A stretch of 64,000 bases of DNA from Candidatus Latescibacterota bacterium (GTDB taxonomy: Bacteria; Latescibacterota; UBA2968; GCA-2709665). The position numbers were made by a program, and so were the translations under genes. The DNA lies in contig OZ242180.1 in the NCBI GenBank assembly GCA_965205485.1, forward strand, positions 1,248,001 to 1,312,000. The letters are read 5' to 3'. The notes below the pieces were generated by a model, which saw nothing but the letters and a program-made list of their open reading frames with translations, searched no databases and was not told where the DNA came from. Positions 7,147 to 11,501 of this stretch are shown piece by piece. How positions within the stretch are numbered: position 1 is the first letter of the stretch; every line of letters begins with the position of its first letter.

Positions 7147-8025
7147 ATGGCGCTGAGGCACGATGCCGGACAGGACGTCTGGCACTTCGCGACGGAGCAG
7201 ATGGCGGGCTACATCCAGCCTGACGGGGACCGTCATGGAATCAAGGAGTTGACGCACAAATCGACGGGCGCGCAGGTGGTACACCCGAAGTACGACCTTC
7301 TGAATCTGTTTTTCATGTTTTCGCAGAACCACTGTATGGGGCAGGCCCGCGAGAACGAACGCAGCATTACGTCCGACGGCAATGCGATCGAAGTACACTG
7401 GGCGGGGACAGATGATCACAAGGCCGAGATGACGGCAAGGTACGAAGTCGTCGAACCCAATGCGGTGGACCTTTCGATCACCGTGAAGTCGAACTGGCCG
7501 TACCCGGCTTATGAAGTGTTCCTGTCCAACTATTTCGACCTGTCCCTGCGGCCGTACGTGTATGTCCAGGGCAGTCCGTTCGATATTCCGGCCGATCAGG
7601 CGCGATGGATCGCGCCGGAAGTGAACGACGTTTTCGTGGGAACGGGACTGGTATTCTCGAGGGACCAGCACGCCGCGCGCCGGTCTACCGACGGGCGATG
7701 GGACCGGATCTGGGGCCTGTACCAGTGGAATCCCCAACGGTATTTCGAATCGCCGGTGATCATGAGCGCGAACCTGGAAACGGGCGTTGCAGGCGTACTG
7801 ATGTCCAGACCTCAGGACTGTTACGCGGTCATCAGCGGGTACCAGAGCGAAAACATGAAGGACCCGTTCAGGGACCAGAATCCGCTCTACCTCTCGTTGT
7901 TCGGAGATGACTTCCGCGTCGGGGATGAACGGACCGTGCAGGTGCGGTTCGCCGTCACCGAAATCGACGAATCGATGACGCAGCCGCTGGCGTTGTACGA
8001 GGCGTTTATGGCGGAGAAGGGGTAG
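7147..8025 (+). CDS. Hypothetical protein
   Basis: 292-aa ORF with GGGAGG RBS and typical codon usage, co-oriented with upstream carbohydrate genes. Confidence 0.75.
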   Translation: MALRHDAGQDVWHFATEQMAGYIQPDGDRHGIKELTHKSTGAQVVHPKYDLLNLFFMFSQNHCMGQARENERSITSDGNAIEVHWAGTDDHKAEMTARYEVVEPNAVDLSITVKSNWPYPAYEVFLSNYFDLSLRPYVYVQGSPFDIPADQARWIAPEVNDVFVGTGLVFSRDQHAARRSTDGRWDRIWGLYQWNPQRYFESPVIMSANLETGVAGVLMSRPQDCYAVISGYQSENMKDPFRDQNPLYLSLFGDDFRVGDERTVQVRFAVTEIDESMTQPLALYEAFMAEKG

Positions 8026-8041
8026 GACAGGGCATCAAGTT

Positions 8042-8812
8042 TCACGGCATCCAGATATTCCACTTGCCGTGCTTTTCCCAGATGCGGCAGGGGTCGCAGG
8101 TACACATCCACCGGATTGCGAAACGCGGTTTGCTGCCTGTATTGAGCGACCCGGCGTGTACCAGCAGGTAATGAAAGAACAGGACGTCGCCCCGGGACGG
8201 CGTCAACTCGATCGGCGCGCTCAGATCGAACTTTTGCGTTGGGTTCTGCAAATCCGGCAGCATGCGAAACCTGTCGGGATCCCGCACCGCCCCATCTCTG
8301 AGCGTACGATGCGAACCCGGCCAGACTGCCGTTCCGCCACCCTGCGCGACACCGGAATCGAGATACGTCAGCGACGAGACGCGGAATGATCCGGGAAAGA
8401 TGCTGAACGGTCGATGTACGCCATCGGCATGCCCGCTGTGGTGACTCCAGCTTCCCGACACCGGAAATACGCTGCGCGTCCACACCGCCTCCGGCTGAGG
8501 TCTCTGGCAGCGAAACGCCGCCTCATTCTTGCGGGCTAGCTGGCTCTGCACGTCGTAAAACGCGGGAGTACAACATGCCAGCAACTCAGGGTCCTTGAGC
8601 CCGAAATGTTCAACCACCCCCTGGCTGGCCACCGTCGTTACGCCATCGGCATTGTCCGGTAAAGGAGACCACGAAGCCGGATCGTCCCGATCCATACCGA
8701 GGACAGACCACATCGTTTCCTCCGCGCCAGCGATTGTTGTTTCCGGAATCAGCCCCGACACCATCACGTACCCGTCCCGGTCATATTGTGCAATCTGCGC
8801 TTGCGAAAGCAT
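8042..8812 (-). CDS. Phytanoyl-CoA dioxygenase (PhyH) family 2OG-Fe(II) oxygenase
   Basis: YDRDGY N-terminus, HAD (HxD), VWPGSH, GDVLFFH..LVHAGS.N....R. Confidence 0.85.
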   Translation of the reverse strand: MLSQAQIAQYDRDGYVMVSGLIPETTIAGAEETMWSVLGMDRDDPASWSPLPDNADGVTTVASQGVVEHFGLKDPELLACCTPAFYDVQSQLARKNEAAFRCQRPQPEAVWTRSVFPVSGSWSHHSGHADGVHRPFSIFPGSFRVSSLTYLDSGVAQGGGTAVWPGSHRTLRDGAVRDPDRFRMLPDLQNPTQKFDLSAPIELTPSRGDVLFFHYLLVHAGSLNTGSKPRFAIRWMCTCDPCRIWEKHGKWNIWMP

Positions 8813-9040
8813 GGACGTCTCCTGGATAGAAGGACATTCGGGTAGACCTTGAGTGTCGTCCCATATAATATCGGTCGATCGAACACCTAAGACACACTAT
8901 CCGTCGTCAACACGGTATTCAACAAGGAAGCATCAAAACACTTCGCCGCTTCAATGTTTGTTGAAGAGATCTCACGTGCCTAACATCGGCCGGTCCCTGA
9001 CTCTGTGCGAAATCGAAGATCGCATACCGAAGCGTGGTCA

Positions 9041-9101
9041 TTGAGCTTGTCGAAATGCCCGCGCTTCGATATCCTGTGCCGACCCTTCGACAAGCTCAGG
9101 G
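9041..9101. repeat. CTTCGACAAGCTCAG-type inverted REP pair
   Basis: TTGAGCTTGTCGAAATG...CCCTTCGACAAGCTCAGG. Confidence 0.8.
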
Positions 9102-9271
9102 AGCGGCCCAGGATACTCGCGCCCATTCATGGAGGGCCCCCTAAAGGGGGACAGGTTTGCTTCGGCGCCGATCTCGGTACGAGACAGTTCGTCGAAGTCA
9201 TACGCGAGACTCCTCGTTCTTCATAGCGCGTCCCATCTTGGGAACATATTTTGAACATTGCCAGACCCACG

Positions 9272-9571
9272 CTATTCGAACGTCGCGACGTGATCAAGAT
9301 TCATGCTTGAAATTGAACCTTCCTCATAGCAGGAATACCAATCCGCGGCATTTGGGATATTGACCATGTCTGCTTGCGCGTTCTTCGCGTCGCCCTCTGA
9401 TTCCCAGTAAACGACGTCGGTATAGCCTCCATCGCTGTTCCGGTGAATCTCCCACTTAATGAAACCTGGCTGTCTGCTCATCCAGTTCACCAGGACCTGA
9501 CGTGCAACGTTTAGTAGGTGTTCCTCGGAGATATTCTCTGCCAACTGGTAACTGATGATGTCTTTATACAT
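9272..9571 (-). CDS. Small dimeric alpha/beta-barrel (ABM-like) protein
   Basis: 99 aa; QPGFI..WE...Y.DVVYWES...AK.A pattern; its ATG overlaps the TAA of the upstream peroxiredoxin-like gene (TAATG). Confidence 0.65.
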   Translation of the reverse strand: MYKDIISYQLAENISEEHLLNVARQVLVNWMSRQPGFIKWEIHRNSDGGYTDVVYWESEGDAKNAQADMVNIPNAADWYSCYEEGSISSMNLDHVATFE

Positions 9572-10167
9572 TATTCGCTATCCCTTGATTCCAGGTGTTC
9601 GAGTATTTCCTGCTGTTCGGCCAGATCGAACTGACTCGATCCGATGTACGTATATCTGATCACGCCGCGTCTGTCGACGATGAACGTCGCCGGACGGGCA
9701 ATGCTGTTGCTCAACCCGTGATTCGCCAGGCCGGTCCATTCATGCAGGGCATAGCCGAGTTTGTCGATGACAAACGTCGCGGGACGGACGATGGTGTAGG
9801 CGACGTTGTGCATCGCCAGGGCGAACCAGTGGCGTACCCCATAGCTCCTGATGACACTCCAGTCTTCGTCCGCCAGAAGCGGAAAGGTGATCCCGTTGCG
9901 TTCGGCGTATTCGCGCATCTCGCCCGGCGGCTGTCCTGCGCCAACGGCAATCGACGTCGTTTTTCTTTCTGCGTACGCTTCGATATGTTCCTGAACGATC
10001 GCCAACTGACGACGCGTTCTCCGTCACCAGGTCCCCCGGAAAAACGTCAGAACGACGTTTTCCTTGTGCCGATACGACGCCAGCGACACCTCTCGTTGCT
10101 GGTGCGACCGGAGCGTGAACAAGGGGGCGGGGTCACCGACACTGAGGGCCCTGCTTCTTCGCGGCAT
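9571..10167 (-). CDS. Peroxiredoxin-like (AhpC/TSA) selenoprotein, Sec at codon 48
   Basis: From ATG 10167 the frame reads MPRRSRALSVGDPAPLFTLRSHQQREVSLASYRHKENVVLTFFRGTW-TGA-RRTRRQLAIVQ... in frame with ORF 9571..10005; the TGA (10024-10026) occupies the redox Cys site of the FxRGxWCxxC motif; a SECIS-like hairpin follows. Confidence 0.85.
9993..10019 (-). promoter_or_regulatory. Putative bacterial SECIS element
   Basis: Minus strand after UGA: GAACG-C-GUCGUC-[AGUU]-GGCGAU-CGUUC; apical loop begins 16 nt after the UGA with G at loop position 2. Confidence 0.7.
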
Positions 10168-10194
10168 TTTGTACTCTTCTGAGGACCTTCACCT

Positions 10195-10953
10195 ATGGAC
10201 GGCGAATTGTTGCACCGGGGTTTTGTCCCCGGGCCGCTGACGCCCGAGCAATGCGATGCGCTGGATGCCAACGGCTTCGTCATTCTTGAATGCGTCATTG
10301 CTCCCGGCTGGCTGGCGGGGCTGCGCCAGGCTTTCGACGTGATCTTCGCCAGCGAAGGCGACAAAGCCGGTGTTGAAGTTGCCCAGATGGAGGGCGTGCG
10401 CCGCCTGGCCGACCTGGTGAACAAGGGGACGGTCTTCGACAATGTCTACCTGCAGCCGACGCTGCTGACGGCGGTGTGGCACGTGCTCCAGCGGCCGTTC
10501 AAGCTGCACTCGCTCAACGGACACGATCCGCTGCCCGGCAGCGGGTTGCAGGGCTTGCACACGGATTGGGGCGGGCCAACTGAGCCTGGCGGACCGTATC
10601 ACGTCGTCAATTCGATGTGGATGCTCGACGACTTCACCCGGGTCAACGGCGCGACCCGCTGCGTTCCCGGAAGCCACCGCAAGCCCGGCAGAGCCTCGGA
10701 CCACGTAGCCGACTCCATGTCCGATCACCCGGACCAGGTACAGCTGACGGGCCGCGCCGGCTCGATCGCCGTCTTCAATGGCAGTCTCTTTCACAGCTCG
10801 TACCGCAACCTCAGCGACGCCCCCCGCCGCACCCTGCACTGCGCCTTTATCGCCCGAGAACACGCGCAGCAAACGAACCAGCGCGAGTACCTGCGGCCCG
10901 CAACCGCCCGTCGGATCTCGCCGCTCGCACGCTACATCCTGGACGTGGAGTGA
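10195..10953 (+). CDS. PhyH family 2OG-Fe(II) oxygenase
   Basis: LDANGF, LHTD (HxD), NGATRCVPGSH, GSIAVFNGSLFH...N.S...RR. Confidence 0.85.
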   Translation: MDGELLHRGFVPGPLTPEQCDALDANGFVILECVIAPGWLAGLRQAFDVIFASEGDKAGVEVAQMEGVRRLADLVNKGTVFDNVYLQPTLLTAVWHVLQRPFKLHSLNGHDPLPGSGLQGLHTDWGGPTEPGGPYHVVNSMWMLDDFTRVNGATRCVPGSHRKPGRASDHVADSMSDHPDQVQLTGRAGSIAVFNGSLFHSSYRNLSDAPRRTLHCAFIAREHAQQTNQREYLRPATARRISPLARYILDVE

Positions 10954-11129
10954 ACCCCAGGGCATTTCTCATGACCGCTTTTTCTTCTTATGATCCATCG
11001 CGTACGCAGAGGGTAATATTGTACCGATATCGGCAATATGCAATACACGCCAGACGTACGCAAGGGTCCGGCGGCAGCGCTGTTGGAGGAGTGGCGGCGG
11101 TCGAATAGAGCTGTATATAAAGGAAGACC

Positions 11130-11501
11130 ATGAAACGTAAACATATACCGACCAGCAGTCCGTTTGGCGCGGAGTTTGGTTATTCACGCGCCGTGCGTGC
11201 GGACCGTCATATTCACGTCGCCGGTACCTGCGCCCAGCCGCCACATGACCAGGGCAATGCCTACGAGCAGGCGCGGAGCGCATTGGGAATCATCGCCACG
11301 GCGCTAGACGAGACCGGTGCATGCCTCGAAGACGTGGTGCGGACGGTCGTATACATCACGGATGTAGCCCACGCCGATGGCGTCACCCGCGCTCACCGCG
11401 AGGTGTTTGGCGAGATTCTGCCGGCCTCGACCCTGGTTGTCGTCGCCGCGCTGCTCAAGCCGCACCTGGTCGTTGAGATCGAAGCCTACGCCATCGATTG
11501 A
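11130..11501 (+). CDS. RidA/YjgF/UK114 family protein
   Basis: GYSRAVR...HVAGT, DVVRT, PASTLV.V..L....LVVEIEA. Confidence 0.9.
   Translation: MKRKHIPTSSPFGAEFGYSRAVRADRHIHVAGTCAQPPHDQGNAYEQARSALGIIATALDETGACLEDVVRTVVYITDVAHADGVTRAHREVFGEILPASTLVVVAALLKPHLVVEIEAYAID

What the first reader, a model, noticed from the sequence alone, without database searches (positions are those of the whole stretch)
9571..10167. Hidden peroxiredoxin-like selenoprotein with a UxxT active site
Seen: the ORF track begins this gene at 10005, but an in-frame ATG at 10167 gives a normal AhpC/TSA N-terminus (VGDPAPLFTL...VSL..Y....VVLTFFRGTW). A TGA then falls exactly at the first Cys of the usual WCxxC motif, giving W-U-R-R-T, and the protein has no Cys at all. 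A SECIS-like hairpin follows. Established: Prx-like selenoproteins with Sec at this site exist in bacteria. Inference: a Sec-only peroxidase or reductase, coupled (TAATG) to an ABM-like partner, that standard annotation would truncate.
Basis: partly seen in the sequence, partly recalled or inferred. Interest (0 to 1): 0.75.

Follow-up and report, generated by a model that had tools for sequence, protein, structure and literature searches.

The report
Single-selenium redox enzyme, known kind
A stop-like TGA inside a redox-protein gene of an uncultured bacterium is kept, with a small predicted RNA hairpin behind it, in related copies across several genera, so it is very likely read as selenocysteine and likely gives a one-selenium peroxide-reducing enzyme of an already catalogued kind that databases cut short.

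Summary
Observation confirmed. The 198-codon frame 10167-9571 (minus strand) has TGA at codon 48 and no Cys; read through, it scores 92 bits on AhpC/TSA.

TGA is kept in 35 of 35 copies that span the site, and 34 of 35 share the same hairpin loop 16 nt downstream. The genome has selA, selB, selC and selD. Of 141 aligned full-length homologues, 125 have Cys there. Selenocysteine is about 95% likely.

It is not a true peroxiredoxin: Sec sits at the thioredoxin-type first position, and Pro159 replaces the catalytic Arg. Relatives are UxxS (33 of 35); UxxT is private to this genome.

The ABM 'partner' is not supported: the TAATG overlap occurs in 1 of 34 loci and looks like a local deletion.

Reviews already list a UxxS AhpC/TSA selenoprotein family, and this scan reported the Poribacteria short form earlier. 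New details: a conserved 30-residue internal duplication, and no NADPH thioredoxin reductase found in the two main host genera. Solid but ordinary.

The parts
9571..10167 (-). Full coding sequence, 198 aa, AhpC/TSA (PRX-like) fold, read through one TGA
   Evidence: PF00578 92 bits vs cut-off 26; the halves give 24.6 and 50.7; model pLDDT 82; AhpE Z 25.0, rmsd 1.4, 152 aligned
10024..10026 (-). [quoted passage not shown]
   Evidence: 35 of 35 copies; Cys in 125 of 141 aligned homologues
9993..10019 (-). Predicted bacterial SECIS: upper stem 10013-10008 with 10003-9998, loop 10007-10004, lower stem extended in this genome
   Evidence: silent sites of codons 52-56 nearly invariant
10036..10038 (-). 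Arg44, four residues before Sec, nearly invariant in the family
   Evidence: same spacing as Arg40-Cys44 of human PGFS (PMC12938796 passages)
9691..9693 (-). Pro159, at the thioredoxin cis-proline position where peroxiredoxins have the catalytic Arg
   Evidence: nearly invariant; aligns with the Arg of AhpE's IANRGTF; PMC2757866 passage. The cis conformation is inferred.
9754..9828 (-). Copy 1 of a 90-nt tandem duplication (codons 114-138); predicted to loop out of the core, partly helical, low confidence
   Evidence: 53 of 75 nt identical to copy 2; best of 100 codon shuffles 41; absent in short forms L032, L040, L042, L043
9664..9738 (-). Copy 2 of the duplication (codons 144-168); supplies the core strand with Arg158-Pro159 in both models
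9574..9590 (-). Last codons (SRDSE), apparently taken from the neighbour's leader by a local deletion that created the TAATG overlap
   Evidence: junction comparison with L011, L012, L013; inferred
9272..9571 (-). Downstream 99-aa ABM-like ORF; a neighbour, probably not a partner
   Evidence: found in 9 of 61 genomes, all in one genus

Best explanation
This is very likely one gene whose in-frame UGA is recoded as selenocysteine through a predicted hairpin just downstream, giving a predicted cytoplasmic thioredoxin-fold enzyme that likely uses its single selenolate (Sec48) to reduce small organic peroxides and would then be re-reduced by an outside thiol donor. Shown: open frame on both sides, conserved TGA and hairpin sequence, selA/B/C/D in the genome, Sec at the site where homologues have the first Cys of CxxC, no second Cys. 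Inferred (about 95%): SelB-tRNA(Sec) binds the hairpin and inserts Sec. Inferred (about 60%): Sec48, flanked by Arg44, Arg158 and Pro159, attacks an O-O bond as the first Cys does in the PRX-like enzyme PGFS. With Ser/Thr in place of the resolving Cys, the oxidised selenium must be cleared by a partner. The genome offers two WCGPC thioredoxins and a ferredoxin-thioredoxin reductase catalytic subunit, but no trxB, gshB or bshC was found, so a ferredoxin-FTR-thioredoxin route is the likeliest donor (untested). The duplicated segment would form a flexible lid near the active site (untested). The clade likely derives from a CxxC subfamily with the same FFRGTW signature.
For: TGA kept in 35 of 35 copies spanning the site. 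dN/dS 0.19 before and 0.20 after the TGA (25 pairs each). Read-through Pfam score 92 bits vs 24.6 and 50.7 for the halves. Silent-site difference 0.043 at codons 52-56 vs 0.316 gene mean (permutation p 0.00035; kin not independent). Stem 99.2% paired in 132 cells. Same loop with a stem of at least 4 bp in 34 of 35, at the spacing of the genome's own selD hairpin, meeting the consensus quoted in PMC13188914. selA, selB, selD and tRNA-Sec all over cut-off; all 24 genomes with a match have selA. Cys at the site in 125 of 141 homologues. UxxS/T clade support 100/100. Fold closest to AhpE, Z 25.0. PGFS and Trx-fold passages. Reductant searches.
Against: No protein or RNA evidence of Sec insertion. 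Hairpin no more stable than shuffles, with 0 of 6 pairs showing a change on both sides; its loop differs from the GG-type loops of selD and the two paralogues. 3 of 35 copies fold above -7.5 kcal/mol in a 36-nt window. Codons 134-139 are even more silent-conserved (0.02) with no explanation, so low silent change alone is not proof. selA is in 57 of 61 relatives, so co-occurrence does not discriminate. The peroxiredoxin triad is missing and no GPx family match was found, so peroxidase activity rests on analogy. Some copies are broken (L015, L031, L063, L073). The lid region has pLDDT below 50 in both models.
Confidence: 0.6

Rival explanations
1. Same selenoprotein, but a disulfide or mixed-disulfide reductase (like a monothiol glutaredoxin) that acts on proteins or S-thiolated targets rather than on peroxides.
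For: First-position nucleophile, Ser/Thr at the fourth position and a cis-Pro-position proline are the pattern of monothiol glutaredoxins and thioredoxins (PMC2757866 passages). Best NCBIfam hit is ResA (59 bits, below its cut-off of 170). Homologues are CxxC (119 of 141).
Against: Structural neighbours rank AhpE, Bcp and Prx (Z 23-25) above ResA (Z 18.9). No glutathione synthetase or bacillithiol ligase found in the genome.
Confidence: 0.25
2. A selenoenzyme for another small substrate, for example reductive dehalogenation of halogenated host compounds in the manner of deiodinases, or binding or reduction of a metalloid, with the duplicated segment giving specificity.
For: Single Sec in a Prx-like fold. 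The insertion has its own invariant residues (H120, N121, P129, G138, G146 in 59 rows) and dN/dS 0.32. The active site is very basic. A 93%-identical relative lies in a sponge metagenome (X5 record 18).
Against: Deiodinase-related model scores 13.5 vs 250; deiodinase 3 ranks 48th by fold, Z 14.4. No conserved neighbour points to such a pathway. Short forms lack the insertion yet keep UxxS.
Confidence: 0.1
3. The TGA is a real stop: the locus is a split gene or shared pseudogene, giving a 47-aa and a 144-aa piece.
For: Public gene calls treat it so (P0132 is the 47-aa piece). In-frame TTG/GTG starts follow the TGA. The hairpin is weak on its own. Some copies are broken.
Against: The codon is always TGA, never TAA or TAG (35 of 35), while the real stop varies among TAA, TAG and TGA. 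It sits exactly at the homologues' Cys. Selection is equal on both sides. The hairpin is conserved down to about 60% protein identity. The halves would have no redox residue.
Confidence: 0.03
4. The protein works with the ABM-like neighbour as a translationally coupled pair.
For: TAATG overlap here. The neighbour is within 0.3-0.6 kb in five more loci of the genus.
Against: Overlap in 1 of 34 loci; neighbour not found within the DNA held in 28 of 34. Found in 9 of 61 genomes, none outside the genus, and not found in the closest relative G014. The junction looks like a recent deletion.
Confidence: 0.04

Closest known systems
[quoted passage not shown]
   Same: AhpC/TSA fold, one Sec at the first motif position, hydroxyl residue at the fourth (UxxS in 33 of 35 copies here), function not shown
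   Different: PF13911 score is 26.7 vs cut-off 27 while PF00578 is 92; the listed representatives could not be fetched, so same-clade status is unknown; this copy is UxxT and carries a 30-aa duplication
'Prx-like thiol:disulfide oxidoreductase' selenoproteins, PF00578, UxxC/UxxU (PMC1088965, PMC13188914 passages)
   Same: Same Pfam family and Sec position; a UPNC relative (L072, 42% identical to the short form L040) and two UxxC paralogues in this genome were seen
   Different: No resolving Cys or Sec here, so recycling must differ
Mycobacterium tuberculosis AhpE (1-Cys peroxiredoxin; PDB 5id2, 4x1u)
   Same: Best structural and sequence match among solved structures (Z 25.0, rmsd 1.4, 152 residues; E 6e-17); one redox residue
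   Different: AhpE has PxxxTxxC plus Arg; here those positions are Arg44, Sec48, Thr51 and Pro159, so the nucleophile is three residues earlier
Human prostamide/prostaglandin F synthase (PRXL2B; PDB 9us9)
   Same: Z 17.7; first Cys proposed to attack a peroxide, Arg four residues before it, flexible segment near the active site (PMC12938796 passages)
   Different: PGFS has CxxC and 16% identity; eukaryotic substrate
SelL-related redox protein (NCBIfam NF040769)
   Same: PRX-like fold, often Sec at the same site; weak hit (E 6e-12)
   Different: 45.5 bits vs cut-off 120; a true member (L074) is 29% identical and UxxC

Membership tests
Bacterial selenoprotein (UGA recoding) | In-frame UGA aligned with a conserved Cys of homologues | tested here: met
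   125 of 141 aligned homologues have Cys
Bacterial selenoprotein (UGA recoding) | UGA conserved in orthologues, with coding selection on both sides | tested here: met
   35 of 35; dN/dS 0.19 and 0.20
Bacterial selenoprotein (UGA recoding) | [quoted passage not shown] | tested here: met
   4-nt loop, G at position 2, 6 bp, 16 nt, -13.2 kcal/mol (criteria from PMC13188914). Checked by script, not by bSECISearch; a loose version passes 35% of 3000 random TGAs, a strict one 0.5%
Bacterial selenoprotein (UGA recoding) | selA, selB, selC, selD in the genome | tested here: met
Bacterial selenoprotein (UGA recoding) | Selenium shown in the protein | not testable with these tools
   needs proteomics or labelling
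AhpC/TSA family (PF00578) | Pfam gathering score 26 | tested here: met
   92 bits
Canonical peroxiredoxin | PxxxT/SxxC(U) motif with the peroxidatic residue last | tested here: not met
   aligned to AhpE: Arg44, Sec48, Thr51
Canonical peroxiredoxin | Catalytic Arg at the cis-proline position | tested here: not met
   Pro159 there, nearly invariant; Arg158 is adjacent and might partly substitute
Catalogued UxxS AhpC/TSA selenoprotein family (cd02970 / pfam13911) | UxxS motif in a PRX-like fold | tested here: met
   33 of 35 copies UxxS, this one UxxT, one UxxC
Catalogued UxxS AhpC/TSA selenoprotein family (cd02970 / pfam13911) | PF13911 gathering score 27 | tested here: inconclusive
   26.7 bits read through, 27.9 for the downstream piece
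Catalogued UxxS AhpC/TSA selenoprotein family (cd02970 / pfam13911) | cd02970 match, or one clade with the listed representatives | not testable with these tools
   no CDD library; accessions not fetchable; supplements not held
SelL-related redox protein NF040769 | Cut-off 120 bits | tested here: not met
   45.5 bits
Glutathione peroxidase (UxxT) | PF00255 match | tested here: not met
   not among the 4 Pfam families at E up to 0.1
Deiodinase-related NF038285 | Cut-off 250 bits | tested here: not met
   13.5 bits

The most novel reading that the evidence does not exclude
In these bacteria a CxxC redoxin was rebuilt in steps (first Cys to Sec, resolving Cys to Ser/Thr, then a 30-residue tandem duplication kept under selection) into a single-selenium enzyme with a new substrate lid for hydrophobic host compounds such as lipid hydroperoxides or halogenated sponge metabolites, recycled by ferredoxin-thioredoxin reductase in genera where no NADPH thioredoxin reductase was found.
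Probability: 0.12. Interest if true: 0.6.

Novelty: new member of a known kind. Interest (0 to 1): 0.25.

Why it matters
Mainly an annotation repair: in dozens of genomes this gene is recorded only as a fragment with no active site. As biology it adds a tidy natural series (CxxC, UxxC, UxxS, UxxS/T with a duplicated loop) for asking how a selenoenzyme without a resolving thiol is recycled, especially in hosts where no NADPH thioredoxin reductase was found. No PRX-like UxxS protein is listed as experimentally verified in the review tables seen.

Tried and rejected
Hairpin stability against shuffles: no signal. Covariation: no double changes in the upper stem. Rfam scan of 8000-11500: one weak match, 19.9 bits vs gathering 97, rejected. 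Promoter scan: 0 sites; 2 terminator-like sites at chance level and on the other strand. Second structure model from long forms only was worse (pLDDT 58) and did not resolve the insertion. Insertion as a transmembrane helix: rejected, best sampled 19-residue hydropathy 0.87. Ribosome-binding site: not properly tested. Genome-wide SECIS scan gave 576 crude candidates, mostly noise. The Olavius paper cited for the UxxS family has no 'AhpC' in its main text and its supplement was not held, so that family is known to me only from the review tables. Literature searches for this clade or its duplication (listings only) found nothing specific. No language-model atlas result is available for this protein. 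Rows dropped before counts: L031 (fragment lacking the TGA region), L054 (same gene as L039), L035-L038, L041, L044-L046, L048-L052, L055-L057, L059-L062 and L064-L071 (repeats of loci already counted); 9 of 150 representatives did not align across residues 44-52.

Full report
1. Observation. The minus-strand frame from ATG 10167 to TAA 9571 has 198 codons with one internal TGA at codon 48 (10026-10024), giving FFRGTW-U-RRT-RRQL. The mechanical ORF list starts the gene at TTG 10005. Read through, the protein scores 92 bits on PF00578 (cut-off 26), against 24.6 and 50.7 for its halves. It has no Cys. Contigs from two samples of one study span the codon with no difference, so it is not an assembly error.

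2. Host. The window lies in a single-contig 5.13 Mb genome, 60% GC, 97% complete. The closest named relatives (75-90% identical) are MAGs titled Candidatus Latescibacterota or Gemmatimonadota, and a shorter form is in a Poribacteria MAG. A 93%-identical contig is in a sponge metagenome run. selA, selB and tRNA-Sec form one cluster, and selD carries its own in-frame TGA. All 24 genomes with a match have selA, but so do 57 of 61 relatives, so this is necessary rather than telling.

3. Conservation of the TGA. The gene matched in 24 of 61 relatives and, with the short form as query, in 32 of 168 genomes of the phylum. Among 35 distinct copies that span the site, all have TGA: URRS 21, UKRS 7, UPNS 3, ULNS 2, URRT 1 (this one), UPNC 1. 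One further hit (L031) is a fragment lacking this region, and L015, L063 and L073 are damaged elsewhere. dN/dS against this copy is 0.19 for codons 2-47 and 0.20 for codons 49-193 (25 pairs each; kin are not independent). Databases hold only pieces: the top 54 of 64 hits are 108-157 aa and cover at most 71% of the query. Among 150 representatives, 141 align across the motif; 125 have Cys at position 48 (119 CxxC), 10 Ser, 2 Asp, 4 other. The nearest full-length ones share the MP start, FFRGTW and the IARPATF-like strand, which also supports the start codon.

4. SECIS. A 6-bp stem closing a 4-nt loop with G at position 2 begins 11 nt after the UGA; the loop follows 16 nt of spacer. With a lower stem it reaches -13.2 kcal/mol here. 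This fits the consensus quoted in PMC13188914 (passages) and the spacing of the genome's selD hairpin. The same loop with at least 4 pairs is in 34 of 35 copies; 99.2% of 132 stem cells pair in the 22 distinct rows aligned. Silent differences at codons 52-56 are 0.043 against 0.316 for the gene. Against it: it is no more stable than shuffles; it has no double compensatory change; the loop is not the GG type seen in selD and two paralogues; and codons 133-139 are even more silent-conserved, which I cannot explain. Taken together, Sec recoding is about 95% likely.

5. Protein anatomy. The model (pLDDT 82) is a peroxiredoxin-type fold, closest to AhpE (Z 25.0, rmsd 1.4 over 152). The catalytic layout is not a peroxiredoxin's. 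Aligned to AhpE, the Pro, Thr and peroxidatic Cys positions are Arg44, Sec48 and Thr51, and the Arg position is Pro159. PMC2757866 (passages) states that thioredoxins have a cis-proline where peroxiredoxins have Arg, and that first-position-only motifs with Ser or Thr occur in monothiol glutaredoxins, ArsC and glutathione peroxidases. Arg44 and Pro159 are nearly invariant in 86 rows. Human PGFS, a fold neighbour (Z 17.7), has an Arg four residues before the Cys that is docked against a peroxide, and a disordered segment near the site (PMC12938796 passages).

6. Codons 114-138 repeat 90 nt downstream (53 of 75 nt identical; shuffles at most 41). The segment is absent from the short forms and from the Cys homologues read. 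Both models put the second copy in the core strand and leave the first outside at low confidence. The insert is under selection (dN/dS 0.32, 24 pairs) and has invariant residues in 59 long forms. In a 58-row tree the UxxS/T copies form one clade (100/100), the long forms a subclade (100/96), placed with the CxxC FFRGTW-type proteins (94/75, weak); the UPNC copy is outside the clade and unresolved (17 of the 35 copies and 41 of the database proteins were used; midpoint root). Mixed families in the clade hint at transfer; this was not tested.

7. Neighbours. The TAATG overlap is real but private. The ABM-like gene is within the held downstream DNA in 6 of 34 loci, 264-602 nt away in five of them; this copy's last residues match the neighbour's leader in relatives, which points to a local deletion. 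The ABM-like gene was found in 9 of 61 genomes, all in one genus. A divergent PhyH gene is adjacent in 11 of 34 loci, all in this genus; other genera have unrelated neighbours. No partner is conserved.

8. Mechanism. Shown: sequence, conservation, machinery, fold class. Inferred: Sec insertion; Sec48 as nucleophile; peroxide substrate by analogy with AhpE and PGFS; external recycling because no resolving thiol exists. For the donor, the genome has no TIGR01292 thioredoxin reductase over cut-off, and none was found in the 14 and 21 genomes of the two main carrier genera, while 16 of 61 relatives have one (in many genomes only 31 candidates were scored). gshB and bshC were not found. It has an intact-looking FTR catalytic subunit and two WCGPC thioredoxins. 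A ferredoxin-FTR-thioredoxin route is therefore my best guess. Rivals: disulfide reductase (0.25), another small substrate (0.10), ABM pair (0.04), true stop (0.03).

9. What is known. PMC13188914 and PMC9312934 (table passages) list an AhpC/TSA peroxiredoxin-like selenoprotein family with UxxS among predicted families, and Prx-like UxxC families go back to PMC1088965 and PMC2398784 (passages). PMC1976440 (passages and section 12) is the cited source, but its main text does not name the family; supplements that I could not see may hold the sequences that decide whether this is the same clade. The protein fails the cut-offs of NF040769 and every other NCBIfam model hit. Searches listed no paper on this clade or its duplication. 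Earlier notes of this scan report the Poribacteria short form and several similar genes; they are AI notes and were not used as support.

10. Verdict. A real, well-supported selenoprotein gene; a new member of a known kind, with a lineage-specific duplicated loop. Interest 0.25.

Noticed in passing
G000 and relatives: No NADPH thioredoxin reductase (TIGR01292) over cut-off in 0 of 14 and 0 of 21 genomes of the two main carrier genera, many of them single-contig; G000 has an FTR catalytic subunit at C1:4528422-4528832 instead. Unusual for a selenoprotein-rich bacterium.
   Followed up: partly
G000:C1:4604637-4604909 and 4605664-4606014 (+): Two further AhpC/TSA-domain genes with in-frame TGA (UxxC), N-terminal hydrophobic leaders and SECIS-like hairpins.
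   Followed up: partly
G000:C1:5003318 (+): In-frame TGA with a GGGU-loop hairpin 18 codons upstream of a ResA/TlpA-like CxxC domain; could be an N-terminal Sec extension or chance.
   Followed up: no
window 9751-9768 (codons 134-139): Lowest silent-site variation in the gene, inside copy 1 of the duplication; no explanation.
   Followed up: partly
P0089, P0105; P0109, P0175, P0188, P0209: Homologues with D-x-x-A/S or S-x-x-T at the motif, that is, with no redox residue; possibly non-redox offshoots of the fold.
   Followed up: no
P0045, P0047, P0066: Long forms with a further 14-aa insertion between the two duplicated copies.
   Followed up: no
codon 82 in relatives: 16 of 27 aligned copies have Cys82 on the helix after the second strand; this copy has Gly. 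It could act as a resolving Cys in those lineages.
   Followed up: no
G011 (L015, L033, L034): Three copies in one genome, one with a second TGA at a Trp position.
   Followed up: no
window 8042-8812 and 10195-10953: PhyH-family dioxygenase genes flank the locus on both sides; the divergent one starts 27 nt from the selenoprotein start.
   Followed up: partly
L074 (G160), L075 (G103): SelL-related redox proteins with in-frame TGA (UxxC) in two other genomes of the class.
   Followed up: partly
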